Shown: positions 44,768-63,850, counted from the first letter of the stretch. The stretch: 64,000 nucleotides of DNA from Patescibacteria group bacterium (GCA_038065495.1 JBBTQW010000002.1:81321-145320); one strand, 5' to 3'. The notes: generated by a model from the letters alone, not told the origin. Program-made: numbers and translations.

Positions 44768-44825
44768 AATTTTAACCTCTTTTCTTTCTTCGTTTGTTTT
44801 GTTTCTAGTTCTTGAGCAACTCAGA

Positions 44826-45548: not shown

Positions 45549-45613
45549 TTTACTTTCCTCTATCTTTCTTTTTTCCCGCTAGAAGCTTGAGCTTCTAGCT
45601 TTTAGTTTACTGT

Positions 45614-46981
45614 TTACTCACCAACCACAGCCGGCCCACCGTGGGCCCTAATGGTCAGAAGTTTGCTTGTGCTGAACGCGTTTCCTTCCGCAGCCGTGTA
45701 ATGGCCATTAACAACCACAATCAGTCCGCCACTAGCAATTCTCGTGACAGCCTCTGATAGATCAAAGTGTGGCCGGAACACGGTGCCTTCGATATTGTTC
45801 ATTGGCTGTGGGTGATTTCTATCCACCAACCGAAACTCCGCAAAAGAACCTTTCATGTAATTGGCAATATCAGCCTCAAACTGATTATTCTCAAACGAGG
45901 TTCCCTTATTGCCAGCGGGCGGATTACAGCCACCATGCGTGTGGATACCCATCACTAGGCCATTAAGTTCCAAAATGATCGGACTGCCAGAGTTGCCACC
46001 GGTAGTGTTCACTCGATACTCATGATTGATCCAAGAGGAGCTAATCGTATTCTCAGCCACATAAGGACCAGTGGCCGTTTGCCGAGTAAAATTGTCCACA
46101 CCGCTATCGCTACCAAAGCCGGTCACTCGGACAATGCCACCAGCGGCCGGTTTCTCTCGCGTTAAGCGAAAACCAATGCCGTACTTCTGCCAAGGCAGAA
46201 GACCATCACTGTTTGGCCCAATCGAGAAAATGGCATAGTCATTACCCGGCACAGCCGTCTCACCTGGGGAACGAACAATTGCACCAGTGAGATCCACTGG
46301 GAACTGGTCGGCCACTGGTGCCGGATTAATCGTTCCGTCGAGGTCGGAAGCTGGGACAGGTCCAAACTCCGCCACGCCAGAAAGATCCAAGACGCCGTTA
46401 CCGTCAGGATCAACGCAATGCCCGGCACTGAAGACAACTTCTCCCACACCCAGGCCACCACGTGAGCCAATGCCAACGGTAAAGCAAGTGCAAGGCCCAA
46501 GGCCAAGTCGCCCGATTCTGCCGTCGTTAGAAGCCACGCGATCGTCAGGGCCACACAAGCTTCTCTCTACTTGCTCCTGACCTCTTAGACCTTCCAGTAC
46601 TTCATCAACAGACACGGAGATACCTTGCTCGCCGGGCGCCACGTGGAGTTCGATCTCCACCGCATCGCCCTTAAAGAAAGCCGACGCATTGGCCCAGAGA
46701 GCAAGCGCCGTGCTGTCCAACTTCTGCTCCTCCAAAGTTTGGAGACTTCGCAGAATAATGTAGCTGCGCTTACCCAAATTTGCTTTGAGATGAACCCGCA
46801 GCCACGGAGCGCCAACAAATTGTACGGTACCCCCCGAAAAGGGTTTGGTAAATTTGTCGGTGTGATTACCGTGAACTTGTGAGTCCAGGGCAACACAGTG
46901 ATGTGTATACCTCGGTCTTGGCTCACCAAAACTTGGTGAGGCCAAAACCAGAACTAACAACAAACTACTCAGTCTCATCAA
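45614..46981 (-). CDS. secreted trypsin-like (S1 family) serine protease with an N-terminal pro-region
   Basis: Signal peptide; catalytic His (SAGHC) and Ser (TTGGNSGSPI) motifs. Confidence 0.65.
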   Translation of the reverse strand: MMRLSSLLLVLVLASPSFGEPRPRYTHHCVALDSQVHGNHTDKFTKPFSGGTVQFVGAPWLRVHLKANLGKRSYIILRSLQTLEEQKLDSTALALWANASAFFKGDAVEIELHVAPGEQGISVSVDEVLEGLRGQEQVERSLCGPDDRVASNDGRIGRLGLGPCTCFTVGIGSRGGLGVGEVVFSAGHCVDPDGNGVLDLSGVAEFGPVPASDLDGTINPAPVADQFPVDLTGAIVRSPGETAVPGNDYAIFSIGPNSDGLLPWQKYGIGFRLTREKPAAGGIVRVTGFGSDSGVDNFTRQTATGPYVAENTISSSWINHEYRVNTTGGNSGSPIILELNGLVMGIHTHGGCNPPAGNKGTSFENNQFEADIANYMKGSFAEFRLVDRNHPQPMNNIEGTVFRPHFDLSEAVTRIASGGLIVVVNGHYTAAEGNAFSTSKLLTIRAHGGPAVVGE

Positions 46982-49893: not shown

Positions 49894-50949
49894 CTATTTT
49901 GGATTCGAGAAGAGACCAGACTTTTTATCTTCTTTAAAGAATTTAGGATTCTTGAGGTTAACTAAGATAGTATTATCTTTGACATAACGCTCTTTCTTCA
50001 CAGCCGCCATCACTTGAGCTTTCGTCATCGCGCCATTTTTGTCGAGAATTTGCTTAATCACGTCGCGAACAATACCCGGCGTGTAGCCCCAATCGCCAAG
50101 CGCATATAATCCCCGCCCAACGAGCACGAATCTCGGATCTTTAATTAATTCATTGTGACTAGTCGCGGCATTAGTTTTGCGACCAAAGGTGGCCGTAATC
50201 TCTTTGGCGACTTCGGTAAAGTGCATTGGAGAACCCTTGCGACGCATGACGAGGAAAGCGTAATCTTTGATCCCTCTTACGCGCACATTTGGCGACTTGG
50301 CCAGGCCCCACTCGCCCACCGGACTCAAACCAATCTCTTTGGAGAGCTTGAGCCAGTTCTTGACCTTCTGCCGAGCCATCTCTGGCGAGACGCGTTTATC
50401 CAAACCACTCATAAAGTGCTCCACAATTTTATCTTCAGAAACTAATTCGTTAGTATCGAGAACTTGGCAGAGATTGCGTAGTGACTGATGCACGCCTTCG
50501 GCGAGGCTCGCATCCACCGTCCAACGATGATGGAAATAATCATCTTCTTTTAGTTTCGCAAAAGCGTCGCCGAGCACAAGCAAGAAGTGCACATTATTCT
50601 GGACCACCTGATCTTTAGAAATATGATCAAGAAACTCCTGCTCGTGCACCAGGCCGCCGTAATCTTCCATCACACCCTTGAGCTGGGCAAAGATTGACTG
50701 AGCAGCTGTATTGGCCTCAGACTTCTTGATCTGCGCAATCGTGGCATTCTCAATCTGCCGCACGCGCTCGCGGGTGATGCCATAGATCTGGCCCACCGCC
50801 TCCAGTGTCATCGTCTCTTTCGTCGCCAAGCCATAACGACGCTTAACTACGTCACGTGGCCGCGCCCCAAGGCTGGCCAAAAGCTCTTTTACCACCTCAA
50901 CTGGCTTGAAGGCCATCACCTCTTTTGTTTCTTTGCTGTTGTTATTCAT
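49894..50949 (-). CDS. sigma-70 region-4-like HTH domain protein fused to an unknown ~280-aa C-terminal domain
   Basis: TLEAVGQIYGITRERVRQIENATIAQIKK is a canonical sigma70 region 4.2 HTH; regions 2 and 3 are not detectable. Confidence 0.55.
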   Translation of the reverse strand: MNNNSKETKEVMAFKPVEVVKELLASLGARPRDVVKRRYGLATKETMTLEAVGQIYGITRERVRQIENATIAQIKKSEANTAAQSIFAQLKGVMEDYGGLVHEQEFLDHISKDQVVQNNVHFLLVLGDAFAKLKEDDYFHHRWTVDASLAEGVHQSLRNLCQVLDTNELVSEDKIVEHFMSGLDKRVSPEMARQKVKNWLKLSKEIGLSPVGEWGLAKSPNVRVRGIKDYAFLVMRRKGSPMHFTEVAKEITATFGRKTNAATSHNELIKDPRFVLVGRGLYALGDWGYTPGIVRDVIKQILDKNGAMTKAQVMAAVKKERYVKDNTILVNLKNPKFFKEDKKSGLFSNPK

Positions 50950-53900
50950 GTTTTTATATTATCATAGATTACAAAATTAAGCAAACGTCCTGGGATATAA
51001 ACTACCTTTTTTACCGTTTTATTGTCAAGCCACTTCTGCACTTTAGGGCTCTGTAGAGCCATATTCTTGGCTATTTCTTCTGTTGCTTCTTGCCCGCCAC
51101 TCAACACGATTTTGTCACGAATTATACCATTGACCTGAATCATAATATTTTGCTCACGTGTTGTAGTTTTTTCTCCAGATTCACTCAGTTCTGGCCACTT
51201 CTCTTGATGAATCGAGGTGTTATGTCCCAACTTTTGCCACAATTCTTCTGCGATGTGCGGCGCAAAGGGTGCGAGAAGCTTAAGAAAAACTTCATAATCT
51301 GTTTTACTCACGCCTTCTTTCTCAAAAGTGTTCAACAAAATCATCAAGCCAGAAATAGCCGTGTTAAATTTGAGACTTTCAATATCTGATGTTATTTTCT
51401 GCACCGAATCAGCTAAATTTTCTGCAGTTTTTTCTGACAGATTATCACTCAATTTCCAGACTCTCTCCAAGAATCTTCTTGGCCCAATTATACTTTCTGT
51501 ATTCCAAGCCACCGCTTGCTCAAATGGACCCATGAACATTTCGTACAATCTCAGCGTATCAGCGCCATAAAGTCCCACAATTTTATCGGGATTAATGATG
51601 GTCTCCGGCTTTGACTTACTCATCTTCACTCCACCTTCAGCGAGAATTAAGCCGTGACTCGTACGCTTCTGATACGGTTCAGAATTTGGCACTAATTTGA
51701 GATCAAATAAAAATTTATGCCAGAATCTAGAATAGAGCAAGTGCAGAGTCGTGTGCTCCATGCCACCGTTGTACCAATCCACGCCGCCAAGACTTGTTCC
51801 AGTTTTGCCTAGCCAATATTGCAATTTTTCTTCACTCGCAAATTCTTGAGCATTTTCTGGATCGCAGTAACGCAGATAATACCAGCTTGAACCCGCCCAG
51901 TTCGGCATCGTGTCAGTTTCTCGCCGCGCTTCGCCGCCACATTTCGGACATTTCACATTCACCCACTCACTCACGCTCGCGAGTGGCGATTCGCCGTCAT
52001 CACGGGGTTGATATTCTTTGACTTCCGGCAAAATCACTGGCAAATCACTTTCTGGCACAGGTTGCCAATCACATTTGCTGCAAAAAATCATCGGAATCGG
52101 CTCACCCCAATAGCGCTGTCGCGAAAAAATCCAATCGCGCAGTTTGTAAGTCGTTTTCGCCGTGCCAAATTTCGCGATTATTTTTTCCCGCGCCTCAACA
52201 GAATCTAAGCCGGAGAATTCGCTGGAATTTATCATTACACCTTCGCTAGCCCAAGCATGTTCGGGTTTAAAGAACCGGTCGAGCCACAGCTCGTATTCTG
52301 AACATTTGATATTTTTGTCTTTCGCCAGTTCGTCCCAAGTTAGCCAAACGACTTCATGAATCTGTTTCTCCTCTTCCGACAACTCTTGCTGTTCTTCGTT
52401 CTCTAACTCAAAAACCAGAGCGTGAAAAACCGCTTTTCGGTTCTCGTTCTTGTGATTAGCAAAGAAATGCGACTCGACTGGACCACCTAAAGTTTTCACA
52501 TACTTCACATTTTTATAGCCGGTTTCTTCGGTAATTTCTCTTTTTGCTGCTTCCACCATATCTTCGTCACCCTCGATCCCACCAGTGATAAATGTCGTCC
52601 AGGGAAATTTTTTCCACTTCAAACACAAAACTTTCTGATTTTTGGGATTAATAATTATCGCCTGAATGGCATTTCTCGCTACCGTTTTCACGCCTTCGCG
52701 CGGCGGATCGTGGGTGTCGATCATTTTGGGCGTCACCACTTCTCTAATCGGTAAATTATGTTTCTGCGCAAAAGCAAAATCCCGCTCATCATGGGCCGGC
52801 ACGCCCATCAGTGCGCCGGTGCCCACATCAGACATTACATATTCTGCTTCCCACACTGGAATCTCCTCCCCCGTGGCCGGATTAGTCACATACTGGCCAG
52901 TAAATTTATCGGTTTTGCCAGCAATGGCCAGATAAGTCGCGCCGAAAATCGTTTCTGGCCGAGTGGTGAAGACTTTGATCACCCCACCCGCACCCTCCCC
53001 CAAGGGGAGGGCTAAGTTTATTTGCTCCAAAACTTTTTTAATGTTATTTAAAACCTCTTCGTTGCTGAAACGAATAAGTTTATAGCCGAGTTGTGCCAAA
53101 TATTTTGTTCTTTCTTCGTCAGATTCCTTTTGATAATCATGAACATCCCCGTCAACTTCTACTACCAACATTTTTTCTAGACAAACAAAATCAACAATAA
53201 ATTTTCCAATAATATGTTGGCGGCGAAAGTGGCAACCTAGTTTATTGTCTCTTAATTCTTGCCACAATTTCTCTTCAGCTTCAGTAGGATTCTGACGCAT
53301 ACCCACCGCTTTTTCTTGTAAAGCGCGGTAGGCGACTGGATCAGCAGTTTGATAGCCAAATTCGCCCCACCCATTCCCTCCCCCAAGGGGAGGGTTCTTT
53401 CTCTCTTCCCCCTCTCCTTTGGGGAGGGGGTCGGGGGTGGGGCTGAATGGAAACTCAATCTCCGCTCCCTCACTTCTCCCAATCCAATTTCTCTGCTGGA
53501 TTTTGATTTTTTCTAAATAGTCTACCGTGTCCAGATCTTTATCCAATCTGTCCGCATACTTCGTAATCGCCAGCATCCATTGCTCTTTCTCTCGTTGTTC
53601 CACTTCCGTACCACAACGCTCACACTTACCATCAACCACTTCTTCATTCGCCAAACCAATTTTATCTTTCGGACACCAGTTAATTAGCGTTTTCTTCTTA
53701 TACGCCAAGCCGTGCTGATAGAACTGCAGAAAGAGCCATTGCGTCCATTTGTAATATTCCGGATCAGTGGTGTTGATCTCGCGTGACCAATCAAATGAGA
53801 AGCCAAGCGCTTTGAGCTGTTTACGAAAGTTATCCGTATTTTCTTGCGTCACCAGTGCCGGCGCTTTGCCCGTTTTGATTGCGTAATTCTCTGTTGGTAG

Positions 53901-54161
53901 ACCGAAAGCGTCCCAGCCCATCGGATAGAGCACGTTCTGACCCATCATCCTCCGCTTTCTCGCCAAGATATCCAGCGCCGTATAACTCCGGATGTGACCG
54001 ACATGCAAGCCATCACCAGACGGAAACGGAAACTCCACCAAACAATAAAACTTATTTTTTTCTCCCGCTTCGCTTTTTTCTTGCGCAGAATAAATACCAG
54101 ACTTCTCCCATTCCGTCTGCCATTTCTGCTCTATTTGATTGTGATCGTAAGCTTCAGCCAC
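50946..54161 (-). CDS. leuS: leucyl-tRNA synthetase carrying an in-frame DUF559 endonuclease-fold insertion (1071 aa)
   Basis: HIGH-type motif (HVGHIRSY), CP1 editing motif TTRPETIFGATY, KMSKS and the anticodon-binding domain are all present. About 160 extra residues lie between NWIGRSEGAEIEF and VFTTRPET. Confidence 0.9.
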   Translation of the reverse strand: MAEAYDHNQIEQKWQTEWEKSGIYSAQEKSEAGEKNKFYCLVEFPFPSGDGLHVGHIRSYTALDILARKRRMMGQNVLYPMGWDAFGLPTENYAIKTGKAPALVTQENTDNFRKQLKALGFSFDWSREINTTDPEYYKWTQWLFLQFYQHGLAYKKKTLINWCPKDKIGLANEEVVDGKCERCGTEVEQREKEQWMLAITKYADRLDKDLDTVDYLEKIKIQQRNWIGRSEGAEIEFPFSPTPDPLPKGEGEERKNPPLGGGNGWGEFGYQTADPVAYRALQEKAVGMRQNPTEAEEKLWQELRDNKLGCHFRRQHIIGKFIVDFVCLEKMLVVEVDGDVHDYQKESDEERTKYLAQLGYKLIRFSNEEVLNNIKKVLEQINLALPLGEGAGGVIKVFTTRPETIFGATYLAIAGKTDKFTGQYVTNPATGEEIPVWEAEYVMSDVGTGALMGVPAHDERDFAFAQKHNLPIREVVTPKMIDTHDPPREGVKTVARNAIQAIIINPKNQKVLCLKWKKFPWTTFITGGIEGDEDMVEAAKREITEETGYKNVKYVKTLGGPVESHFFANHKNENRKAVFHALVFELENEEQQELSEEEKQIHEVVWLTWDELAKDKNIKCSEYELWLDRFFKPEHAWASEGVMINSSEFSGLDSVEAREKIIAKFGTAKTTYKLRDWIFSRQRYWGEPIPMIFCSKCDWQPVPESDLPVILPEVKEYQPRDDGESPLASVSEWVNVKCPKCGGEARRETDTMPNWAGSSWYYLRYCDPENAQEFASEEKLQYWLGKTGTSLGGVDWYNGGMEHTTLHLLYSRFWHKFLFDLKLVPNSEPYQKRTSHGLILAEGGVKMSKSKPETIINPDKIVGLYGADTLRLYEMFMGPFEQAVAWNTESIIGPRRFLERVWKLSDNLSEKTAENLADSVQKITSDIESLKFNTAISGLMILLNTFEKEGVSKTDYEVFLKLLAPFAPHIAEELWQKLGHNTSIHQEKWPELSESGEKTTTREQNIMIQVNGIIRDKIVLSGGQEATEEIAKNMALQSPKVQKWLDNKTVKKVVYIPGRLLNFVIYDNIKT
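52993..53011. repeat. 19-bp near-palindrome ccctcccccaaggggaggg (copy 1), flanking the DUF559 insertion
   Basis: Identical 19-mer at 53376..53394; both copies preceded by ccccaccc. On the coding strand it encodes PLP(K/L)GEG. Confidence 0.8.
53376..53394. repeat. 19-bp near-palindrome ccctcccccaaggggaggg (copy 2)
   Basis: Direct copy of 52993..53011. Because the unit is near-palindromic, the pair also acts as terminal inverted repeats. Confidence 0.8.
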
Positions 54162-54188: not shown

Positions 54189-54749
54189 TTACTGATTCTG
54201 ACTTAACTTCTTAATCCCCAACCAGATTAGAGCAATCAGCGCGACCGCGAGGATGATTAAGCGCAAGTAATCGTTCATGTCACTCCAGTAACGAGTAGAG
54301 CCGACGATGAGCGAGACCACGCCGCCAAAGGAGACACCGAGTGAGACGGCGCCCGACTGCGTGAGCCAGAAGCCCGCGCCGAGCGAGAGCAAACCCAGCA
54401 CGATCAGCACAATGAACACGTTGCGATTATAAACTTTGTGCACTTCATTATATTCTTTCGCACAAGTGAAAGTGACATCGCAGTAGCCCTGCGGTTCAGC
54501 CGGCGTGAGCGTGGCTGGCACAGTTACAGGCCGTGGCTCTTTACTGAAGCTTGCGGGAGCGTTCCAAGCACCACCCACGCCCACACAATCCTTCTCATTA
54601 CTTGGCGAAATGTTGACTTGCTTCTGCGGGCAATAAGTGTCCCACGTTGGCTCCTGATAAACCACCTTGGTCGCAAAGTGGAAGAACAAATTGAGCACAA
54701 TAATCAGCGACAAGATTAGTGCCCATTCCAAAATTTTTGAATGTTTCAT
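54189..54749 (-). CDS. hypothetical membrane protein (186 aa, 3-4 TM helices, Cys-containing extracellular loop)
   Basis: TM helices at the N-terminus and C-terminus; no recognised family. Confidence 0.45.
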   Translation of the reverse strand: MKHSKILEWALILSLIIVLNLFFHFATKVVYQEPTWDTYCPQKQVNISPSNEKDCVGVGGAWNAPASFSKEPRPVTVPATLTPAEPQGYCDVTFTCAKEYNEVHKVYNRNVFIVLIVLGLLSLGAGFWLTQSGAVSLGVSFGGVVSLIVGSTRYWSDMNDYLRLIILAVALIALIWLGIKKLSQNQ

Positions 54750-55582: not shown

Positions 55583-55846
55583 ATGAAATCTGGGTCCTCA
55601 CTGCAATCGTTATTCATGGTAAAGTGTCTGGTTGACGAACTAATTCTCGACCGACCAATTACTGAATTGGGATTATACCAAAGAGCAGAAAACATTCTGA
55701 GATCAGTCCATATCGACACCATCAGAAAGCTCACCCAAAGCTCTGAACGTGTGTTTCTCTCCTACCGTGGGGCAGGAACAACCTCACTGAAAAGTATCAA
55801 GCGTGAGCTAAACAAACTGGGTCTTTCGTTGCAACAAGAAACCTAA
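55583..55846 (+). CDS. standalone RNA polymerase alpha-CTD-like HhH domain protein (87 aa)
   Basis: ITELGLYQRAENILRSVHIDTIRKLTQSSERVFLSYRGAGTTSLKSIKRELNKLGLSL matches the alpha-CTD consensus (EL.L..RA.N.L....I.T...L....E......G..SL..IK..L...GLSL). Confidence 0.6.
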   Translation: MKSGSSLQSLFMVKCLVDELILDRPITELGLYQRAENILRSVHIDTIRKLTQSSERVFLSYRGAGTTSLKSIKRELNKLGLSLQQET

Positions 55847-55961: not shown

Positions 55962-56951
55962 TCAGATTTTAAACTCAATTACATCTCCGTCACTCACCAC
56001 ATAATCCCGCCCAACCGTACGCCAAGTTTTGCCGGCCAGTAAATCTGGCCAAGTAATCACTTCCGCTTTGATAAACTTTTCTTGGAAGTCGCCATGGATC
56101 GCCGTGCCAGCCTCGGGCGCCGTCCAGCCTTGCTTGATCGTCCAAGCCCGCGTTTCGTCCTCGCCAGTGGTAAAATATGTGGCTAAGCCGAGCAAAGCGT
56201 AACTCTGTTTGATGAGCTCATCCAAGCCGGTGTTGAAAATCGCATCAACTTCCACCCACTTCGCGCCTTGTCCGGCCATCAGATTTTCTAAAGCTTTCGT
56301 ATCCGCTTTGGCGCCAGCCGCTTCGGAATTATTGAAAACATAGAGCATCGGCTTGGCGGTGAGCAAGTGCAAACTCTTGAGCAAGATTTTTTCTTCTTTA
56401 TCTAAACTTAATTCTGACACTAACTTTCCCTGTTTTAAAATTTCTTCAAGTTTTTTCAACAACTTTTCTTCAAGAACTGCCTCTTTATCACCCCGACGCA
56501 CATCTTTCCCAATTGTCATCAAGCGCTTTTCAACTGTTTGCAAATCTGCGAGCGCTAATTCTAAATTGATAGTTTGCACGTCATCCAGTGGAGAGACTTT
56601 ATTATGCACATGGATAATATCTTTATCGTCGAAAATCCGCACCACCTCCGCAATCGCATCCACTTCGCGAATGTGCGAGAGGAATTTATTACCCAAACCC
56701 TCACCACTCGCCGCGCCCTTCACCAAGCCAGCGATGTCTACGAATTCGATCACCGCTGGCACTGTCTTGGCTGACTTGGAAAAATCTGACAATTTCTGTA
56801 ATCTCTCATCTGGCACCGGCACCACGCCCACACTCGGATCGATAGTACAAAATGGATAATTTTCTGCCGGAACAGACTTCTTCGTGAGCGCATTGAAGAG
56901 CGTGGACTTCCCCACATTTGGCAGGCCGACAATGCCGATTGAGAGCTTCAT
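55962..56951 (-). CDS. ychF: ribosome-binding ATPase YchF (Obg-family GTPase, short form)
   Basis: MKLSIGIVGLPNVGKSTLFNALTK G1 motif, DIAGLVKGAASGEGLGNKFL, and a TGS-like C-terminal domain. Confidence 0.85.
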   Translation of the reverse strand: MKLSIGIVGLPNVGKSTLFNALTKKSVPAENYPFCTIDPSVGVVPVPDERLQKLSDFSKSAKTVPAVIEFVDIAGLVKGAASGEGLGNKFLSHIREVDAIAEVVRIFDDKDIIHVHNKVSPLDDVQTINLELALADLQTVEKRLMTIGKDVRRGDKEAVLEEKLLKKLEEILKQGKLVSELSLDKEEKILLKSLHLLTAKPMLYVFNNSEAAGAKADTKALENLMAGQGAKWVEVDAIFNTGLDELIKQSYALLGLATYFTTGEDETRAWTIKQGWTAPEAGTAIHGDFQEKFIKAEVITWPDLLAGKTWRTVGRDYVVSDGDVIEFKI

Positions 56952-56990
56952 GTTGCTAAATATGCCTTATTTCCAGCTAAAGTTCAAGCA

Positions 56991-57034
56991 AAAAAAAATA
57001 AACCCCGTTCGCGATGCTGTGCATCGGAACGGGG
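56991..57034 (-). terminator. intrinsic terminator on the minus strand after the PEP-CTERM gene
   Basis: ccccgttcgcgatgc-tgt-gcatcggaacgggg, a ~14-bp stem; the plus-strand A9 run gives a T-run on the minus strand. Confidence 0.65.
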
Positions 57035-57080
57035 CGGTGTGGTTCAAATCAGTGTCAGATTATGATCAGGTGATTTGAGA

Positions 57081-57794
57081 TTAACAGAAAGATCTGCGCC
57101 GGCGAGGAAACAGAGGGAGTGAACCCAATCCGGCGATTGCCAGCGTCGCTGGTTCCGGCACCGGGCGATAGTCATAAGTGACTTTCGCGGTCAGGTTGAG
57201 AACCGGGTTCTCCACCTCTAGTTGCCACGAATCGGGCACATACGGCCCGAAGTTCGCCGTCTGGAAGATCACGTCCGGCGTGAACATGAAGTCCGCTGTG
57301 CCTGCGCCCAGATACGCCGCAAGCGGCTGAGCAGGATGTGAGACGGTCAATGTGGCATACGAGACGGTGCCAAAGTTGTGACCGTCTGGGCCAGAACTCT
57401 GGAAAACATCGTTATTACCACCATCGCCGTCATCCGGAGTAAGTGGGACCGAGGCTGTGTTCACAATCTTGGTATCGCCACTCGCGAGGCCGGCCGGGCC
57501 AGTCACTGACCACGAGCGAATCAGCTGACCTTGGACAAACAACTGCTGACCATGGTCAAACGGATCGTCGTTATCGGCCTGCAGATCCACCGAGCCATCA
57601 TGGCAAAACTCCACCAGCACACCGACCAGCTCGCGCGTGCCACCCATGTCGTCGAACTTGGGGACACTCACCACCACGCTCGGCTGGAGCGCACTCTCGA
57701 ACGAGTTCGATCCACTCACCATGTACGAATCCGCGCGCGCCGCGCTGGCCGTGAGCAACACGGCGACCATCCCCACCAAACTGGGAACTTTCAT
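57081..57794 (-). CDS. secreted protein with a C-terminal PEP-CTERM sorting signal
   Basis: Signal peptide MKVPSLVGMVAVLLTASAARA; C-terminus PVPEPATLAIAGLGSLPLFPRRRR (PEP motif, TM helix, Arg cluster). AAGGAG RBS before the internal ATG. GC-rich. Confidence 0.6.
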   Translation of the reverse strand: MKVPSLVGMVAVLLTASAARADSYMVSGSNSFESALQPSVVVSVPKFDDMGGTRELVGVLVEFCHDGSVDLQADNDDPFDHGQQLFVQGQLIRSWSVTGPAGLASGDTKIVNTASVPLTPDDGDGGNNDVFQSSGPDGHNFGTVSYATLTVSHPAQPLAAYLGAGTADFMFTPDVIFQTANFGPYVPDSWQLEVENPVLNLTAKVTYDYRPVPEPATLAIAGLGSLPLFPRRRRSFC

Positions 57795-57910
57795 ACTCAA
57801 ACTCCTTCTTGTCGAAGAACAATTTAGCCGCAAACCCTGCAGCCTTGGGAAGTTAGACGAAAATCTAACCAACTTATACCCTAGCAGATTTGCAAAAACT
57901 TGTCAAATAT

Positions 57911-58132
57911 TTAGCTCTGCTTCAGTTTTTCTAGCTCTGCTTGGTGGGTTAGCATCACTTCCATGGCCGCGGCTTGTTGATCTTGGCCAGACTTCACTTT
58001 TTCTTGTATTTCTTCCGCAATTTGCTTAAAAAGGGCGGGATTCTGCTTCACAATATTCATCACTTGACCGGCTTGCTCCTCGCTCACACCGTGAGATTTG
58101 AGCATTTTCTTCAAGATAAAGTCGCCAAACAT
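57911..58132 (-). CDS. small hypothetical protein (73 aa)
   Basis: ORF only; helical, no family recognised. Confidence 0.35.
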   Translation of the reverse strand: MFGDFILKKMLKSHGVSEEQAGQVMNIVKQNPALFKQIAEEIQEKVKSGQDQQAAAMEVMLTHQAELEKLKQS

Positions 58133-58190: not shown

Positions 58191-58261
58191 GGGCCTATAG
58201 TATAGCGGTAGAACGGTTCCATGGCATGGAACAGGTCCGGGTTCGACTCCCGGTAGGTCCA
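58191..58261 (+). tRNA. tRNA-Ala (anticodon GGC)
   Basis: GGGCCTA/TAGGTCC acceptor with the G3:U70 Ala identity pair, anticodon arm GTTCC-ATGGCAT-GGAAC, T-arm CCGGG-TTCGACT-CCCGG, discriminator A. CCA is not encoded. Confidence 0.8.
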
Positions 58262-58273
58262 CAGAGTTTCCCC

Positions 58274-60013
58274 CTACTTCACCTCTTTCTCGATATCTTC
58301 GATTTCTTTTTTGATATATTTCTCAGCGGTCCGAAGATTCTTGCGGACACGAGTGAGGATGCGCGCTTCTTCGCGAGTCAAGTCGCGCTTCGTTTTAGCT
58401 TTCTCTAGCAAGCTTAACTGCTTCTCCAGATCTTCGCGCAGGAGATCAAAGGCTTGGCCGATTGACTCTTCTGCCTCATGCACTTCGGCTCGCACCTTGC
58501 GCCGCAGGCGATGTAAAGCGCGCTGGCTGTGCTCGAGCAAGAGCGCGAGTAAGACGAATAGCGCCACAAAAGGAATCGCGACCGAGAGAGCGGAAACAGC
58601 TTTATTGCCCAAGCGCCACCAGGCCGGCGGGCGCACGTTCAGCTCAATCGCCGTGCTGGGCAAACTACTCGCGCCGTCATCGCGTAGCACTCGGGCGGTA
58701 ATCGTATAATTGCCGGCCGGCAGTTTCTCTGGCGAAACAAAAGTAAAGCTGCCGAGGTTATCGCTCTTGATGCTGGCAATTTCGGCTGGATTAGCCCCTT
58801 CTTGCACGCTCACAAGCAAGCCGGTATCGGGATAAGTTTGACCTTTGGCCACCAAATTCTGCCCGGCGAGTAGATCGGTTGGGTAATCCGTCCAAGTTGG
58901 CGAGAGTAGCGGTAGAACCGTGACAGAAATCGAAGAGAGTAATGCATTACCAGCGCGATCGAAAGCGCGCGCGGTAATAGTGTGTGTGCCCGGTGGCAAG
59001 GCTGGCGTGCGATAAACTTCACCACGACCGCCACGCCAAACAGGCAGAGTCTCACTACCCGAACGTAATTCGTAATAATCTAAGCCAGAAGTACTATCGC
59101 TCGCGCTTAAGAGTAATTTAACTTTTGGATCCGTGTCGTCGTCCCGGGCGCTCTCGCGAATAAAGAAATTAGTCGGCTTAGTCGTGTCTATTTGCAGGCG
59201 ATAATGACTCGTCTCACTCCACTCGCCGTTACCCAATTTAGCTTGAACGTGGAAATACCACCTGCCGTCACCCAGATCATCCAAAATTTTCTCGCTCACG
59301 GCTGGCTCATAGAGCACGCTCGCCTCGCCACGCGCTGTTTTATTGACCGCTAGGCGCACCGCACTCGCGCCACTTGGCAAATCCCAGCTCAACTTGGCCG
59401 TGCTGGCACGATACCATTTGTCTTGATCTGGATGCGTGCTGGAAGTAATATTTAAACTATTCTGATCATCTTCAGTTTCAGAAATATCCGGAATTATCGG
59501 CTTGGCGATAGTTGGCTCTGTCGCCGCACCGCCAAGTTGCAAGCTGGCACTACCGGCGCTAGTCAAGATATTACTGCCTTGGCCGTCATTGGCGAGCACG
59601 GCTGGTGTGACAAAACTTAATTTGGCCGAGCCCGCACGCTTGGCTCGGAAGTTGATACTCAAAACTCGGCCAGAATTACCGGTAAAACCGGGATTAAGCG
59701 CCACGCCTTCGAAATTTATTGTTCCCGCAGAATTAGAAAAGCTCGGCTCTTGCACCCACAGGCCGACGACCGAGCCGCCCTTGGAGAGCGAAGTGACTTG
59801 CAAGAGATCAGCGGGGAAAGTGACAACGCCAGAAACAGCGTTCATGGCTTGGTCAGGTGTGGAAACGATTATTGTAACAGCAAAATTCTGACCAGCTGAG
59901 AAATTTCCAGTATTTGGACTAAGACTAAGTGACGCCGCGTGCGCAAAACTTGGCGCTAAAAAAAGAACTGAAGCAAAAAAGATTAAAAATATTTTTGAAA
60001 TAGAAAAATGCAT
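58274..60013 (-). CDS. cell-surface protein: signal peptide, cohesin-like N-terminal domain, Ig-like repeats, C-terminal TM anchor and a coiled-coil cytoplasmic tail
   Basis: SLSLSPNTGNFSAGQNFAVTIIVSTPDQAMNAVSGVVTFPADLLQVTSLS...LWVQEPSFSNSAGTINFEGV resembles the cohesin domains of CPR-type surface proteins; TM segment AIPFVALFVLLALLL near the C-terminus. Confidence 0.5.
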   Translation of the reverse strand: MHFSISKIFLIFFASVLFLAPSFAHAASLSLSPNTGNFSAGQNFAVTIIVSTPDQAMNAVSGVVTFPADLLQVTSLSKGGSVVGLWVQEPSFSNSAGTINFEGVALNPGFTGNSGRVLSINFRAKRAGSAKLSFVTPAVLANDGQGSNILTSAGSASLQLGGAATEPTIAKPIIPDISETEDDQNSLNITSSTHPDQDKWYRASTAKLSWDLPSGASAVRLAVNKTARGEASVLYEPAVSEKILDDLGDGRWYFHVQAKLGNGEWSETSHYRLQIDTTKPTNFFIRESARDDDTDPKVKLLLSASDSTSGLDYYELRSGSETLPVWRGGRGEVYRTPALPPGTHTITARAFDRAGNALLSSISVTVLPLLSPTWTDYPTDLLAGQNLVAKGQTYPDTGLLVSVQEGANPAEIASIKSDNLGSFTFVSPEKLPAGNYTITARVLRDDGASSLPSTAIELNVRPPAWWRLGNKAVSALSVAIPFVALFVLLALLLEHSQRALHRLRRKVRAEVHEAEESIGQAFDLLREDLEKQLSLLEKAKTKRDLTREEARILTRVRKNLRTAEKYIKKEIEDIEKEVK

Positions 60014-60015
60014 GT

Positions 60016-60912
60016 CTATTTATTATACTTCAATCGTGCAAACAACCACAAGCTCGCAATAATCCCCGCTACGAAAATTGCGAGCACGCCCAACTTTTTA
60101 CGCAATGAGAAAGTTGAGACTGGTTCTAATTCTAACTCTGGCGCTGTTTGCGGCTTCTCCACCGAGCTAGGAAAATTATTCTGAGAATTATTTTCTGGAT
60201 TTTTGTTCAGATTCATAGTCACCGGGATCTTTACCTCAGGCAAAACATTTTCTGGTTCTGGCTGGTTAATTACCTGCATCTGGGTTGAGAACAATCTCTG
60301 CCTAATTAAATTAAGCAAATTTAACAATAAATTTCTCAGATTTTCAGAAATTGTCGTAATAGCATTCGTGACGCCGTGGCTGATATTGCCAATAAAGCCC
60401 GAGCCACCACTGGAGCCATTCCCCGATCCTGTTCCGGTTTCTGTCTCCGTCCTGGCCGAAGCTGGTCGCCAGTCAGTCTGGACGGAACAATTGTCACAAT
60501 CAAAAGTCACTCGTCCCACACTATTACCAGATGTCCCAGCCGTACCCGCAAAAACACCATTATCACTGATACTGATGCCGCCTAAGTCGAGCCAGCCGAG
60601 GCCCGAGACCCACGCCGCGCCGCTCAAGCTCCCCTCGCTGGTATTGGCCACGCTCTGGCTAGAATTGCTGGGCTGGAAGTTGATCCAACCATATTTGCTA
60701 CTCCAGCCATAACCGGATAAGCCGGAGTCGGTGACTGTGACACCCACATACTCGTCGCTAGTGTTCGTTGGCGCGAGATTGATCCAACCGAGATTCTCAC
60801 CCCAAGCATAAGCGTGGCTGGCGCTGACCGTCCCCACAGTTTCGGAAGCTAAAGCAGGACTCACCAACGCTAGCGCGAGCAAAAAGATCAAACAGACTTT
60901 TTTAAGGCGCAT
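60016..60912 (-). CDS. secreted, membrane-anchored protein with three GW(I/L)(N/D)(L/F) repeats
   Basis: Signal peptide; repeats WGENLGWINL, YGWSSKYGWINF, AAWVSGLGWLDL; Gly/Ser/Thr-rich linker; C-terminal TM helix. Confidence 0.45.
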   Translation of the reverse strand: MRLKKVCLIFLLALALVSPALASETVGTVSASHAYAWGENLGWINLAPTNTSDEYVGVTVTDSGLSGYGWSSKYGWINFQPSNSSQSVANTSEGSLSGAAWVSGLGWLDLGGISISDNGVFAGTAGTSGNSVGRVTFDCDNCSVQTDWRPASARTETETGTGSGNGSSGGSGFIGNISHGVTNAITTISENLRNLLLNLLNLIRQRLFSTQMQVINQPEPENVLPEVKIPVTMNLNKNPENNSQNNFPSSVEKPQTAPELELEPVSTFSLRKKLGVLAIFVAGIIASLWLFARLKYNK

Positions 60913-61333
60913 GTTGTTCTACTTGTTCTGTTTTATTTTCGGCCTCTGCTTGCACCTGCGCGAGGGGCGCTGTTGTCACAATTTTATCCACCGCCGGCCG
61001 ATACAGCACAGCTAGATGGGCTTGCGGGAAAACAATCACCTTATCGCCGTTCTGAGCTGAACGAAAGAAGTCTTGACCGTTCAATTTTTCGCGATCAGAC
61101 ACCGTGGCCACCACCACACCGGTTTCGTCTGGGATAATCATCAGTCGCGCCAGTGATTTAATTATTTTTGTCGTTTCATTTTTCGCTCGGATTTCCGGAT
61201 CAGTCTGGAGCGTGCGATAGCGTTGATAGAGATAAGCCACCGCTACTAAACACAACACAAGTAACGCAACCAGAATCCGCGTCAAAACCGTTTGTCTGGC
61301 ATTAGTTGTTTTACGATTAGTACTAACAGTCAT
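60902..61333 (-). CDS. hypothetical membrane-anchored protein (143 aa)
   Basis: Single N-terminal TM helix (ILVALLVLCLVAVAYL); no recognised domain. Confidence 0.4.
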   Translation of the reverse strand: MTVSTNRKTTNARQTVLTRILVALLVLCLVAVAYLYQRYRTLQTDPEIRAKNETTKIIKSLARLMIIPDETGVVVATVSDREKLNGQDFFRSAQNGDKVIVFPQAHLAVLYRPAVDKIVTTAPLAQVQAEAENKTEQVEQHAP

Positions 61334-61345
61334 GATCTAAAAATA

Positions 61346-63850
61346 TTAAATAGTTTCTGGGACAACAATTTCTTCTGCTTGTTCAGAATTTTCTGGATTT
61401 TCTGACTTTAGTTCTGGTGCTGGTTCTGGTTTAGTAATAACTTCCGGTTCTGGTTCTGGTTCTGGTTCAGATTTAACTTCCGGCGTCACACTGGCAGGAG
61501 TGACTGACTGATTTAGTTTATCAAAATCTTCGGCCTTCAAACATTTTTCCGTGCCATCTGCTCGTTGCAAACACAGCTCTCTAGTGTGAACTTTCTCAAA
61601 ATAACCAACAACTGCCGTTACTCGCGCGCTGACAAAGTCAGTCACGGGCTTTAAACCTGTTTTAACTTTTTCCAGAATATATTCGCGCGCGTTTCGAGGA
61701 CTTTCCGTACTCACCTCATCCAAATTTAGTGTGAGTCCGCGGCTCTCCAGTGTCTCACCCCAACGCGCTTCTTGCTCTTGCACGGCGCGTACCACCAGCG
61801 CCAAGATCGCCCGGTCATCAATACCGCTAATCTGGCCCTCACCATCATGTGTCGCCAAGTGGTCATCAACTTCGGCAGTATCTTCCGCAATAAAACCGTA
61901 ACGCGTCCGACCGTCGCCCTCGTTGTAGACGAAAGAGACCGGCTCCAGACCGGCTAGAGTTTCTAAACCAGCCACTTCTAGCTCGGCGATATCATGCTTT
62001 GTCGCGCGGGTGGAAGACAAGCAAGCATCAGAGGCGCTGTTATACACAACTTGCTTACTAGAGCTCAAGCACAGCGAGCCAGCGCCAGTAGAGCCAGTGA
62101 GACCGTCGAAGCCGACTGTGCCAGTAACCGAGAGCGTGCGCCACGGCGAGGTGGTGGCCACGCCCAAGTTGCTGCCCACTTGGATATTGCCAGTGAGCGT
62201 AATCGCCGGATTGATCAATTTATCCAACTGACAAGCTGAGCAAGAAACCGTGCCAGTGCCATCAATGCTGTAAGTAGTAGTGGAAGCAGTGGTAATGCCA
62301 TTGAGCGAGAGGCCATTACCAGTGATGGTGATGGGAGCAATAGTACTATCGGGAATTAATTGTGCGCCAGAAACGTATGTGGTGCCACCACCAGTGTGAT
62401 AAAGCGGATAAGTACCACGCATCACACCACCTAAGACCTTCAGATCATCGCCGCCACTACCATTGCTAATACCGTGAGGATAAAGAGCTACTTCCAGCGT
62501 AACCCTAGCCGGAGTACCACCACAACCAGGCATATCAAGGGCGCCTTCGGCATTGGCGTCAAAAACTCTAGCTTTGACATAAAGGTTGCCGCAAGCAACC
62601 TCAATACCACTACCAGTGCCACCGCCTTCGCCACCCATAATAGTATCGGCATATAGATTAACATTGCCATCCGTCACAACGGCGTCATACTCTATGGAAG
62701 AAATATCGCGAGTCACGTGAGCAGTAAATTGCGCACCAGAACCAACCACAATCGCACTGGCATTAGGCGAACCGGCAGAGATTGAGCGAATGCGCTCGGC
62801 TGAGACTGTGACGGAGCTGGCGGCATTGGTGATAGAAAAAGGGGCGTGATCATTACTTCCAGCATTGCCCGCATAAATAAACTGACCGTGGCCACCAATA
62901 GTAGAAGTTGCGGCCCCGTTAGTGCCATTTGCACCATCATCAAAGATCGCCGCGCCAGAACCGGTAAAATAGACTACAGCGCCAGGCTCAAAGTAATAAT
63001 TAACGCCAGTCTTGAGCAGATTACTAGTGTCATAAAAACCCGGGCCAACATAAATAGTGCTGGATGCAGTAGCGTCTTGTTTTGCCTTCTGCAACATCGC
63101 ACCGCGCGCGGCGTTGGTGTCGGAAGAAATATAAGTTTTAGTACTAGTCGGTGTTTGTAGAACAATCGAGCCGGCCAGCGTAGTGGTGGCGGTAAAAGTG
63201 TTGACGCCAGAATAAGAATTGGTGGAAGTGGTACTAACATAGTCTAACCCGGCCGTGGCTACGCTCACGAGGCCAGTGGTGGACTTGAGCAAACCAGAGA
63301 AAGAATTGATGGAAACATTGCCGGTAAGGTTGAGCCCGCCGGAGCCGGCTTGCAAGTTGAGTGCGGTGGCGCCAGTGGTATTGCCAAGCGTGATTGTCTT
63401 GGCGCTGGAGCCGGTGCCAAAGTTTAGAGCACTAGCCGCAGCCGAATCAACCGTCAAAGCACCGCTACCAGTAATCGTCCCGCCGTTGACGCTAATATTA
63501 TTGGCAAAAGTGGTGGAGCCATCGTCGCCAAAGGTGACAAAAGCCGTGCCATTATCTTTGATAATAAAGTCGCCCTGGCCTGCGAGATTAAAAATCAAAT
63601 TAGAATCCGTGGCAGTGTCGGCGAGGGTGAAGGTGAGATCACGATTATCAGTGGTAACAATCGCATTGCCACTGGTGGCGTTATAAACTGCCTGCAAGGT
63701 CGAGCTGGCCACCGTACAGTTGGCAGTGGTTGGCGCACATTCGGGATCCAGCGTCTCGCCCGGGTCATAGGGTTGACCATCCCAAGCGGCAAACACCACT
63801 GAAGTGAGCAATAAACTAGTAACGATGACAGCGATGCCTATTTTCTTCAT
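61346..63850 (-). CDS. secreted beta-helical fibre/adhesin-like protein with an internal peptidase-S74 intramolecular-chaperone auto-processing domain and an acidic EP-repeat tail
   Basis: Signal peptide; long G/T/S/N-rich beta-solenoid-like region; ...TKHDIAELEVAGLETLAGLEPVSFVYNEGDGRTRYGFIAEDTAEVDDHL...ISGIDDRAILALVVRAVQEQ matches the S74/endosialidase-chaperone consensus (LKxNIxxL..LxPVxYxxK...GFIAQEVxxVxPE...VxYxxLxxLLIEAIKEL). Confidence 0.55.
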   Translation of the reverse strand: MKKIGIAVIVTSLLLTSVVFAAWDGQPYDPGETLDPECAPTTANCTVASSTLQAVYNATSGNAIVTTDNRDLTFTLADTATDSNLIFNLAGQGDFIIKDNGTAFVTFGDDGSTTFANNISVNGGTITGSGALTVDSAAASALNFGTGSSAKTITLGNTTGATALNLQAGSGGLNLTGNVSINSFSGLLKSTTGLVSVATAGLDYVSTTSTNSYSGVNTFTATTTLAGSIVLQTPTSTKTYISSDTNAARGAMLQKAKQDATASSTIYVGPGFYDTSNLLKTGVNYYFEPGAVVYFTGSGAAIFDDGANGTNGAATSTIGGHGQFIYAGNAGSNDHAPFSITNAASSVTVSAERIRSISAGSPNASAIVVGSGAQFTAHVTRDISSIEYDAVVTDGNVNLYADTIMGGEGGGTGSGIEVACGNLYVKARVFDANAEGALDMPGCGGTPARVTLEVALYPHGISNGSGGDDLKVLGGVMRGTYPLYHTGGGTTYVSGAQLIPDSTIAPITITGNGLSLNGITTASTTTYSIDGTGTVSCSACQLDKLINPAITLTGNIQVGSNLGVATTSPWRTLSVTGTVGFDGLTGSTGAGSLCLSSSKQVVYNSASDACLSSTRATKHDIAELEVAGLETLAGLEPVSFVYNEGDGRTRYGFIAEDTAEVDDHLATHDGEGQISGIDDRAILALVVRAVQEQEARWGETLESRGLTLNLDEVSTESPRNAREYILEKVKTGLKPVTDFVSARVTAVVGYFEKVHTRELCLQRADGTEKCLKAEDFDKLNQSVTPASVTPEVKSEPEPEPEPEVITKPEPAPELKSENPENSEQAEEIVVPETI

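What the first reader, a model, noticed from the sequence alone, without database searches (positions are those of the whole stretch)
57081..57794. PEP-CTERM-sorted secreted protein, GC-rich, with no exosortase gene in the vicinity
The C-terminus PVPEPATLAIAGLGSLPLFPRRRR is a canonical PEP-CTERM exosortase recognition signal. Such proteins normally co-occur with exosortase (EpsH/XrtA) and EPS loci in Gram-negative bacteria. Here the gene is a compositionally distinct singleton between ychF and tRNA-Ala with a strong terminator, and nothing exosortase-like is within 64 kb. Either the sorting machinery is encoded elsewhere, which is informative about this organism's envelope biology, or the gene is a recent horizontal acquisition whose sorting signal is orphaned.
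Basis: partly seen in the sequence, partly recalled or inferred. Interest (0 to 1): 0.5.

Follow-up and report, generated by a model that had tools for sequence, protein, structure and literature searches.

The report
Planctomycete surface-protein gene inside a CPR bacterium
A tiny groundwater bacterium (Patescibacteria/CPR) carries one secreted surface-protein gene taken from Planctomycetota; it has kept the protein's body under selection, while the imported PEP-CTERM sorting tail drifts, probably now serving only as a membrane anchor.

Summary
Window 57081-57794 (minus strand) encodes a 237-aa protein with a signal peptide, a jelly-roll "choice-of-anchor E" domain (NF033208, above cutoff) and a PEP-CTERM tail. 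It is the GC-richest of 56 genes and is followed by a strong terminator.

The window is a Patescibacteria MAG from Hainich groundwater. The same gene sits at the same locus in three assemblies and in five divergent CPR alleles, so it is not a chimera. All nine GTDB species genomes with a homologue are Planctomycetota, where it occurs as tandem pairs among other PEP-CTERM genes. A more distant CPR relative has the empty site, with the 71-aa gene overlapping ychF. This indicates transfer from Planctomycetota into one CPR subclade.

The gene is not decaying: domain dN/dS is about 0.11 and PEP is invariant. The post-PEP tail is 39% identical among CPR copies against 85% among Planctomycetota copies, although the domains are equally conserved (82% vs 84%). 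That fits an orphaned sorting signal reused as a generic membrane anchor.

No exosortase lies in the 84 kb I could reach. None lies near the donor homologues either, so its local absence says little. The whole genome could not be searched. I rate this an ordinary family in an unusual host, of moderate interest.

The parts
57081..57794 (-). CDS of the 237-aa secreted protein (stop codon 57081-57083)
   Evidence: ORF and translation. The exact protein is recorded in NCBI GCA_964356885.1 as 'PEP-CTERM sorting domain-containing protein [Patescibacteria group bacterium]'.
57732..57794 (-). N-terminal Sec-type signal peptide (aa 1-21, MKVPSLVGMVAVLLTASAARA|D)
   Evidence: Read from the sequence: a basic N-terminus, a hydrophobic core and an A-x-A site. 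A21 is invariant and D22 nearly so. AlphaFold models a helix at aa 5-19 ahead of the domain. No signal-peptide predictor was available.
57168..57680 (-). Choice-of-anchor E domain (aa 39-209), a jelly-roll beta-sandwich
57084..57164 (-). PEP-CTERM tail (aa 211-237): PEP at 57150-57158, 15 uncharged residues, RRRR, then 3 extra residues SFC
   Evidence: The PEP codons vary synonymously among CPR alleles while the amino acids stay fixed.
56989..57035 (-). Intrinsic terminator of the gene (15-bp GC-rich hairpin plus U-run)
   Evidence: the 101-nt stretch containing it folds at -34.2 kcal/mol, z -6.5. It is conserved in CPR loci L008, L026 and L027.
57878..57906 (-). Candidate promoter: TTGACA (57901-57906), 17-nt spacer ending in TGC, then TAGGGT (57878-57883)
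   Evidence: Read. The -35 hexamer is invariant and the -10 is TAGnnT in the four CPR loci whose sequence reaches it (W, L007, L008, L026; L027 starts downstream of it). The element travels with the gene in L008, where GrpB intervenes. The consensus scanner did not call it, so this is inference.
57802..57807 (-). Shine-Dalgarno AAGGAG, 7 nt before the ATG
56952..57910 (-). Whole inserted expression unit (promoter, 5'UTR, CDS, terminator and the ychF promoter region) between the stop of the 73-aa gene and the ATG of ychF
   Evidence: Empty site in the CPR relative L029: the 71-aa gene overlaps ychF at ATGA. L028 carries different GC-rich cargo at the same junction.
57607..57607 (.). Approximate recombination breakpoint inside the CDS
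   Evidence: Window versus L007: mostly 90-100% identical per 100-nt window upstream (a few windows down to 76%) and 96% over the first ~190 nt of the CDS. Identity drops to 67-76% from about 57607 to the 3' end.
57911..58132 (-). Flank: conserved 73-aa CPR gene, the ancestral upstream partner of ychF
58191..58262 (+). Flank: tRNA-Ala(GGC), present next to the 73-aa gene in every CPR relative whose contig reaches that far
55962..56951 (-). Flank: ychF GTPase
   Evidence: Pfam YchF-GTPase_C and MMR_HSR1.

Best explanation
The gene is a Planctomycetota surface-protein gene, consisting of a signal peptide, a choice-of-anchor E jelly-roll domain and a PEP-CTERM tail. The ancestor of one Parcubacteria-type CPR subclade captured it.

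It is now a self-contained expression unit with its own promoter, Shine-Dalgarno sequence and terminator. It sits in the junction between a 73-aa gene and ychF, next to tRNA-Ala. Since then it has been kept under purifying selection, and its alleles have been shuffled by homologous recombination between CPR strains.

Proposed mechanism in the CPR cell:
- The protein is exported by Sec and its signal peptide is cut after ARA.
- The C-terminal hydrophobic segment plus Arg cluster acts as a stop-transfer anchor.
- The jelly-roll domain is therefore displayed on the outer face of the cytoplasmic membrane as a type I, C-terminally anchored surface protein.
- The exosortase step used in the donor is most likely no longer carried out. 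The sorting signal is orphaned and survives as a generic anchor.

What is shown: the gene's identity and architecture, its foreign origin and the direction of transfer, its retention under selection, the mosaic alleles, and the tail-specific relaxation of constraint. What is inferred: the promoter, export and topology, the absence of an exosortase in the rest of the genome, and the biological role (adhesion or surface structure).

Sub-confidences: transfer from Planctomycetota about 0.9; gene functional in CPR about 0.8; tail works without an exosortase about 0.5-0.55.
For: Identity. NF033208 scores above its cutoff and PEP-CTERM tail models match. PEP is invariant in 20 homologues.

Not an artefact. 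The same protein and context appear in NCBI, ENA and Logan assemblies. Five distinct CPR alleles occupy the same locus.

Donor.
- All 9 GTDB species genomes with a homologue are Planctomycetota, including the deep branches at 36-47% identity.
- In the closest donor genomes the gene is a tandem pair. The scanned Planctomycetota loci hold 1-4 PEP-CTERM genes, most 2-4, per <=20 kb.
- Gene GC is 0.56-0.59 and GC3 0.63-0.69 in CPR copies. CPR loci are 0.47-0.50 overall, while Planctomycetota loci are 0.587 with gene GC3 0.72.
- The CPR alleles form one clade with 96% NJ bootstrap, or 70% on the domain alone.
- L029 has the empty site, and L028 has other GC-rich cargo at the same junction.
- Donor-type and CPR copies come from the same aquifer, Hainich wells H41 and H51.

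Functional retention. All alleles have intact ORFs. Domain dN/dS is 0.11 in CPR against 0.08 in Planctomycetota. Promoter, SD and terminator are conserved.

Orphaned tail.
- Domain identity is 82% in CPR and 84% in Planctomycetota. Post-PEP tail identity is 39% (range 32-50) against 85% (67-100).
- Tail dN is 0.50 against 0.11, and tail dN/dS 0.32 against 0.14.
- CPR tails gained extra residues after the basic cluster, whereas all Planctomycetota copies end at ...IRR(K/R)R. The hydrophobic run of 14-16 residues and the 3-4 basic residues persist.
- Only one PEP-CTERM-like tail occurs in 84 kb of the CPR genome.
- No Exosortase_EpsH hit and no unexplained ORF with 5 or more TM segments occurs there.
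Against: PEP, and in fact PEP[AS]T[LI], is still invariant in all CPR alleles despite synonymous changes in those codons. A plain membrane anchor would not need this, and it could mean the motif is still recognised by an enzyme.

Only about 84 kb of a genome probably near 1 Mb was inspected, so an exosortase elsewhere is not excluded. Exosortase-family proteins are known in some single-membrane bacteria (my recollection, not tested here).

The CPR clade has only 70% bootstrap support when the signal peptide and tail are left out. At nucleotide level, the core of the window allele is no closer to other CPR alleles (71-75%) than to one Planctomycetota copy (76%). Repeated import therefore cannot be ruled out.

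A 14-15-residue hydrophobic stretch containing two prolines is short for a stable transmembrane helix. Expression, export and surface location are untested.
Confidence: 0.55

Rival explanations
1. The sorting machinery exists elsewhere in this CPR genome. An exosortase-family enzyme, co-acquired or native, recognises the PEP motif, cleaves the tail and attaches or releases the protein. The gene would then be a fully working exosortase substrate in a CPR bacterium.
For: PEP[AS]T[LI] is invariant in all CPR alleles while the codons change synonymously. Tail dN/dS of 0.32 is still below 1. PEP-CTERM genes normally lie far from their exosortase (PMC1569441). Less than 10% of the genome was inspected.
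Against: There is a tail-specific loss of conservation: 39% against 85% identity with equal domain conservation. CPR tails also carry added residues after the basic cluster. Only one PEP-CTERM-like protein occurs in 84 kb, against 1-4 (mostly 2-4) per <=20 kb in donor loci. As far as I recall, single-substrate exosortase systems usually keep enzyme and substrate adjacent, and here nothing is adjacent. No held paper mentions exosortase or PEP-CTERM systems in Patescibacteria. Haft 2006 found PEP-CTERM only in bacteria with an outer membrane.
Confidence: 0.28
2. Host-link reading. The CPR lineage lives attached to Planctomycetota cells. It acquired and keeps a host-type surface protein for attachment or surface mimicry, and the PEP-CTERM tail may even be handled in the context of the host envelope.
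For: The donor phylum is specific: 9 of 9 GTDB genomes. Donor-type and CPR copies co-occur in the same aquifer. The ectodomain is as conserved in CPR as in Planctomycetota. The alleles are mosaic and more divergent than their flanks, as is typical of interaction surfaces.
Against: There is no direct evidence of association. The Hainich study reports co-occurrence of Patescibacteria with Planctomycetota mainly in another well (H52, mostly Brocadia) and regards most CPR there as free-living. A second compositionally odd gene I tested is CPR-native, not planctomycetal. One transferred gene is thin evidence for a host relationship.
Confidence: 0.12
3. Artefact or decay: either a misassembled or mis-binned Planctomycetota fragment, or a dead passenger gene on its way to loss.
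For: The gene is a compositional outlier. It is a single gene with no known function in the host.
Against: Three independent assemblies and five alleles share the same CPR synteny. The flanking promoter and terminator have CPR-like composition and are conserved. All ORFs are intact, with domain dN/dS 0.11.
Confidence: 0.03

Closest known systems
Planctomycetota choice-of-anchor E / PEP-CTERM proteins, e.g. the tandem 232-aa pair after frr in GCA_016235815.1 (JACRIM010000010.1) and in GCA_964559885.1 from Hainich well H51
   Same: They are 71-76% identical over the full length. They share the same architecture of signal peptide, jelly-roll domain and PEP-CTERM tail, and the same GC and GC3.
   Different: The window copy sits in a CPR genome as a single copy. 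It has a 2-aa insertion before PEP (DYR[PL]VPEP against EY--TPEP), a fast-evolving tail and extra residues after the Arg cluster. The Planctomycetota tails are nearly invariant and end at IRR(K/R)R.
PEP-CTERM/exosortase (EpsH, XrtA) sorting system of outer-membrane bacteria (Haft et al. 2006, PMC1569441)
   Same: [quoted passage not shown]
   Different: The host is a Patescibacteria member, a group generally held to lack an outer membrane (established knowledge, not tested here). Only one such protein and no exosortase or EPS genes occur in 84 kb. Constraint on the tail is relaxed.
Choice-of-anchor domain families (NCBIfam NF033208, choice_anch_E)
   Same: The protein scores above the curated cutoff over nearly the whole profile. 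Relatives carry alternative C-terminal signals: 86 of the best 149 have PEP-type tails and many of the other 63 have [IV]P[AT]PG...RRRR tails.
   Different: The family has no known function, and the model says nothing about what the domain binds. No specific structural relative was found.
LPXTG/sortase surface proteins and simple C-terminally anchored (type I) surface proteins of single-membrane bacteria
   Same: The proposed end state is the same: a Sec-exported domain held at the cell surface by a C-terminal hydrophobic segment plus a positive cluster. Haft 2006 notes that the two signal types are physically so alike that LPXTG tails are top noise hits to the PEP-CTERM model.
   Different: There is no LPXTG motif and no sortase in the window. 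The likeness is functional analogy, not homology.
Flocculation-associated PEP-CTERM protein PepA of Zoogloea (NF033554)
   Same: It is also a small secreted PEP-CTERM protein, and there is a weak partial match (E 4e-4, 20 bits).
   Different: The match is far below the 80-bit cutoff and is driven largely by the tail. This protein is not a member of that family.

Membership tests
PEP-CTERM sorting domain (TIGR02595 / PF07589; Haft 2006) | Nearly invariant Pro-Glu-Pro motif near the C-terminus | tested here: met
   PEP lies at aa 213-215 (window 57150-57158). It is invariant in 20 homologues and preserved through synonymous codon changes in CPR alleles.
PEP-CTERM sorting domain (TIGR02595 / PF07589; Haft 2006) | A hydrophobic stretch of about 14 residues followed by a strongly basic cluster at the extreme C-terminus | tested here: met
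   There are 15 uncharged residues and then RRRR. Three extra residues (SFC) follow; the Planctomycetota copies have no such extension.
PEP-CTERM sorting domain (TIGR02595 / PF07589; Haft 2006) | Score above the curated HMM threshold | tested here: not met
   PF07589 scores 19.5 bits against a gathering score of 20.7, so it fails narrowly. Nine NCBIfam PEP-CTERM family models hit the tail only, all below their whole-protein cutoffs. The Planctomycetota homologues carry precomputed PF07589 hits. NCBI's own annotation names the protein a PEP-CTERM sorting domain-containing protein.
PEP-CTERM sorting domain (TIGR02595 / PF07589; Haft 2006) | N-terminal signal peptide | tested here: met
   By inspection only: MK, a hydrophobic core and ARA|D, conserved across homologues. 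The model places a helix at aa 5-19. No dedicated predictor was available.
PEP-CTERM sorting domain (TIGR02595 / PF07589; Haft 2006) | Several PEP-CTERM proteins per genome (median 8) | tested here: inconclusive
   One PEP-CTERM-like tail occurs in the 84 kb of this genome that could be read. Planctomycetota loci hold 1-4, most 2-4, per <=20 kb.
PEP-CTERM sorting domain (TIGR02595 / PF07589; Haft 2006) | An exosortase (EpsH family) encoded in the same genome | not testable with these tools
   None is present in the window or in record positions 15070-98723 of CAYHIU010000001.1. The remaining roughly 250 kb of that contig and the other contigs could not be fetched.
PEP-CTERM sorting domain (TIGR02595 / PF07589; Haft 2006) | Host has an outer membrane and exopolysaccharide genes | not testable with these tools
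   No EPS locus lies in the 84 kb seen. The window carries peptidoglycan and cell-shape genes only. That CPR bacteria lack an outer membrane is general knowledge, not tested here.
Choice-of-anchor E domain (NCBIfam NF033208) | Score above the curated cutoff over the full domain | tested here: met
   38.6 bits against a cutoff of 23.8. Residues 39-209 align to profile positions 16-172 of 172.
Choice-of-anchor E domain (NCBIfam NF033208) | The same domain occurs with different C-terminal anchoring signals in different relatives | tested here: met
   Of the best 149 cluster representatives, 86 have PEP-type tails. Many of the remaining 63 have [IV]P[AT]PG + hydrophobic + RRRR tails, and a few have other endings.

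The most novel reading that the evidence does not exclude
The transfer records a physical association. This Parcubacteria-type groundwater lineage would be an episymbiont of Planctomycetota, and would display a host-derived jelly-roll surface protein for attachment to, or mimicry of, the host envelope. The locus would then be the first sequence-level pointer to a Planctomycetota host for a CPR lineage. It would also be a natural experiment in how an exosortase signal evolves after losing, or changing, its enzyme.
Probability: 0.12. Interest if true: 0.7.

Novelty: new member of a known kind. Interest (0 to 1): 0.42.

Why it matters
PEP-CTERM signals were defined as a feature of bacteria with an outer membrane and an exosortase. 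Here an intact one has been maintained for a long time (synonymous divergence about 1) in a CPR lineage, after transfer from a different phylum living in the same aquifer.

The two clades give a clean internal comparison. The ectodomain is under the same constraint in both, while the sorting tail has lost most of its constraint in the new host only. This shows which parts of the signal depend on the sorting enzyme: the transmembrane sequence and the exact C-terminal end. It also shows which parts persist without that dependence: PEP[AS]TL, hydrophobicity and positive charge.

The locus also names a specific donor phylum for a CPR lineage whose hosts are unknown. That is a testable lead, though a thin one. 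The gene family and the signal itself are already known, and NCBI already annotates the protein as PEP-CTERM.

Tried and rejected
- Assembly or binning artefact: rejected. Three assemblies and five alleles share the same CPR synteny.
- Phage or prophage origin of the gene or its neighbours: no PHROGs hit for nine local proteins and no relative in IMG/VR. The upstream 834-aa protein does carry a Peptidase_S74 domain.
- Composition as proof of transfer: not sufficient. Gene 32190-33035 is equally GC-rich but belongs to a CPR-wide family (Nomura-, Falkow- and Moranbacteria). Its synonymous codon usage is only the 13th most atypical of 56 genes.
- Exosortase next to the donor homologues, to obtain a query and a reference context: none found. 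The multi-TM neighbours are HtpX-like, UbiA-like, WecA-like, CPBP-like and transporter proteins.
- The 186-aa four-TM neighbour (54189-54749) as a hidden sorting enzyme: no family hit. A 173-aa ORF with a similar C-terminal sequence occupies the same position in L029, which lacks the PEP-CTERM gene.
- Literature: no held paper pairs exosortase with Patescibacteria. The few papers that pair PEP-CTERM or exosortase with CPR, Patescibacteria or Parcubacteria either do so only in a reference list (the two I opened) or, judging by title and term counts, are on unrelated topics.
- Independent import of each CPR allele from Planctomycetota: not favoured, given the shared 2-aa insertion and 96% bootstrap for the CPR clade. 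It is not excluded for the 3' two-thirds of the window allele.
- The sigma-70 consensus scanner did not call the promoter I propose.

Full report
**What is there.** On the minus strand, an ORF runs from ATG at 57794 to TAA at 57081-57083 and encodes 237 aa. An AAGGAG Shine-Dalgarno sequence lies 7 nt upstream. The protein has three parts.
- A Sec-type signal peptide, MKVPSLVGMVAVLLTASAARA|D. This is by inspection, supported by conservation and the modelled helix.
- A domain matching NCBIfam NF033208, 'choice-of-anchor E', at 38.6 bits against a 23.8 cutoff and covering nearly the whole profile.
- A C-terminal PEP-CTERM tail, VPEP-ATLAIAGLGSLPLFP-RRRR-SFC.

A 15-bp hairpin plus U-run follows the stop codon. 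The 101-nt stretch containing it folds at -34.2 kcal/mol, z -6.5. The gene is the most GC-rich of 56 window genes: GC 0.591 against a mean of 0.473, z 2.8.

**Whose genome.** The exact protein is on record as 'PEP-CTERM sorting domain-containing protein [Patescibacteria group bacterium]'. It occurs in NCBI GCA_964356885.1 (a 334-kb contig), in an ENA assembly of Hainich groundwater well H41, and in a Logan assembly. The neighbours are the same in all three.

The window is typical CPR housekeeping DNA: CysRS, RecR, Obg, a Mur ligase, PBPs, MraW, MreB/C, RseP, PriA and LeuRS. Homologues of the neighbouring 73-aa gene include one named Candidatus Vogelbacteria, which belongs to the Parcubacteria group.

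**Where the gene came from.**
- Protein search found 16 close homologues at 59-81% identity.
- Four of them (P0002, P0003, P0004, P0007) lie in CPR contigs at the same place, between the 73-aa gene (with or without a GrpB gene) and ychF, next to tRNA-Ala(GGC).
- The others for which context exists lie in Planctomycetota genomes. There they form tandem pairs downstream of frr, among beta-helix/dockerin and DUF1573 genes.
- A scan of one genome per GTDB species found nine genomes with a relative. All nine are Planctomycetota, including the deep branches at 36-47% identity.
- Those loci hold one to four PEP-CTERM-tailed ORFs, most of them two to four, per <=20 kb.
- The CPR copies have GC 0.56-0.59 and GC3 0.63-0.69, in CPR loci of 0.47-0.50. 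The Planctomycetota loci are 0.587 overall with gene GC3 of 0.72.
- The CPR alleles, plus one context-less sequence (P0008), form a clade with 96% NJ bootstrap, or 70% on the domain alone. The five alleles with known CPR context also share a 2-aa insertion before PEP, which P0008 lacks.
- A more distant CPR relative, L029 (ychF 70% identical), has the empty site: tRNA-Ala, then the 71-aa gene, then ychF overlapping it at ATGA. An intermediate relative, L028 (ychF 81.5% identical), carries two different GC-rich genes at the same junction.

I conclude that one transfer from Planctomycetota into one CPR subclade occurred, at a junction that repeatedly accepts foreign DNA. Donor-type and CPR copies are both found in Hainich wells H41 and H51, which tap the same karst aquifer.

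**Is it alive in the CPR host?** Yes, on the evidence available.
- All five CPR alleles are intact. Whole-gene pairwise dN/dS is 0.08-0.16.
- Domain dN/dS is 0.11 in CPR against 0.08 in Planctomycetota.
- The upstream region is conserved among the CPR loci and moves with the gene in L008. It contains TTGACA, a 17-nt spacer, TAGnnT, a 5'UTR and the SD sequence. The downstream terminator is conserved in the loci that keep the ychF junction.
- The alleles are mosaic. Window and L007 are mostly 90-100% identical per 100-nt window upstream (a few windows down to 76%) and 96% identical over the first ~190 nt of the CDS. Identity is 67-76% from about 57607 to the 3' end.
- For that pair, gene dS is 0.95 against 0.17-0.31 in the flanking genes.

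This pattern points to recombination among deeply diverged alleles, as is often seen for exposed surface proteins.

**The sorting question.** No exosortase is in the window. Only three ORFs have four or more hydrophobic segments. They are an M50 protease, a ZIP transporter and a 186-aa unknown, and none matches an exosortase model. L029, which lacks the PEP-CTERM gene, has a 173-aa ORF with a similar C-terminal sequence at the position of the 186-aa unknown.

Precomputed Pfam hits over record positions 15070-98723 (84 kb) show no Exosortase_EpsH. That stretch holds no other PEP-CTERM-like tail and no further multi-TM ORF.

This local absence says little. Haft et al. 2006 describe PEP-CTERM genes as mostly single-gene operons (PMC1569441). 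None of the Planctomycetota loci I scanned that carry a homologue has an exosortase within the <=20 kb held.

The informative result is comparative.
- Within the CPR clade and within the Planctomycetota clade the domain is equally conserved: mean pairwise identity 82% and 84%.
- The post-PEP tail is 39% identical in CPR (range 32-50) against 85% in Planctomycetota (67-100).
- Tail dN is 0.50 against 0.11, and tail dN/dS is 0.32 against 0.14.
- All Planctomycetota copies end exactly at ...IRR(K/R)R. CPR copies carry varied extra residues: SFC, LVCR, LI, QLT, FLA and WTG.
- What persists in CPR is PEP[AS]T[LI], 14-16 uncharged residues and 3-4 basic residues.

So sequence-specific constraint on the tail collapsed after the transfer, while generic anchor properties were kept. 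This is what I would expect if the co-evolved exosortase was left behind and the tail now works as a stop-transfer anchor. The invariant PEP motif is the main counter-evidence, and it keeps the 'exosortase elsewhere' rival alive at about 0.28.

**Comparison with what is known.** The protein is a member of the choice-of-anchor E family, with the cutoff met. In the wider family there are 2048 cluster representatives at E <= 1e-3. Among the best 149, the same domain carries either PEP-type tails (86) or, in many of the remaining 63, [IV]P[AT]PG...RRRR tails.

It has every sequence feature of a PEP-CTERM signal but misses the Pfam threshold narrowly. The genome-level features of the PEP-CTERM system could not be tested: an exosortase, multiple substrates, an outer membrane and an EPS locus. 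The partial evidence for them is negative. The held literature has nothing on PEP-CTERM or exosortase systems in Patescibacteria.

**Verdict.** Two qualifications apply: the acquisition is not very recent, and the gene is maintained rather than decaying. The missing exosortase in the vicinity is ordinary.

This is a new member of a known family in an unexpected host. I rate interest as moderate (0.42), for the natural experiment on sorting-signal evolution and for a thin but testable pointer to a link between Planctomycetota and this CPR lineage.

Noticed in passing
window 32190-33035 (minus strand): A second GC-rich single gene (GC 0.576, GC3 0.709) lies between fmt and a cyclophilin gene and has no Pfam hit. 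An opposite-strand 326-aa ORF overlaps it and is probably spurious. Its homologues are hypothetical proteins spread across CPR (Nomura-, Falkow-, Moran- and Parcubacteria), so it is CPR-native despite its composition.
   Followed up: yes
window 58274-63850 (minus strand) and beyond; L031 1-15577: A co-directional run of large secreted or membrane proteins with almost no family hits lies just upstream of the target: 1985, 236, 313, 318, 310, 674, 834, 143, 298 and 579 aa. The 834-aa protein has a Peptidase_S74 (endosialidase chaperone) domain. The 579-aa protein has Ig-like (Big_13) domains, a TM segment and a charged coiled-coil tail. There are no PHROGs hits. It may be a CPR surface-appendage or adhesin cluster.
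   Followed up: partly
L028 6315-9710: In a CPR relative, the same junction between the 72-aa gene and ychF holds two other GC-rich minus-strand genes: a 611-aa ResIII/Helicase_C_2 helicase (GC 0.56) and a 262-aa protein (GC 0.58). The junction next to tRNA-Ala therefore looks like a recurrent landing site for foreign DNA. GrpB genes also move around it in L007 and L008.
   Followed up: partly
window 50946-54161 (minus strand): The LeuRS is 1071 aa and carries DUF559/MTES_1575 (endonuclease-like) and NUDIX hits inside the synthetase. The LeuRS of relative L029 is 776 aa. This suggests a large insertion in an essential gene.
   Followed up: no
window 55583-55846 (plus strand): A stand-alone 87-aa protein matches only the RNA polymerase alpha C-terminal domain (PF03118). 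It is conserved at this position in several CPR relatives.
   Followed up: no
P0173, P0210, P0216, P0221-P0227 and others: Many distant members of the same domain family end in [IV]P[AT]PG + hydrophobic + RRRR instead of PEP. This looks like a variant exosortase-type signal on the same domain.
   Followed up: partly
window 44396-46981 (minus strand): Three adjacent secreted proteins of 123, 240 and 455 aa are above the window's mean GC (0.53-0.55). The largest has a weak trypsin-like peptidase match, and the other two have no family hit.
   Followed up: no
window ~10167-10406 (minus strand), next to tRNA-Glu at 10009-10081: A small 79-aa GIY-YIG domain protein, called in L030 at 19971-20210, sits directly beside a tRNA gene.
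   Followed up: no
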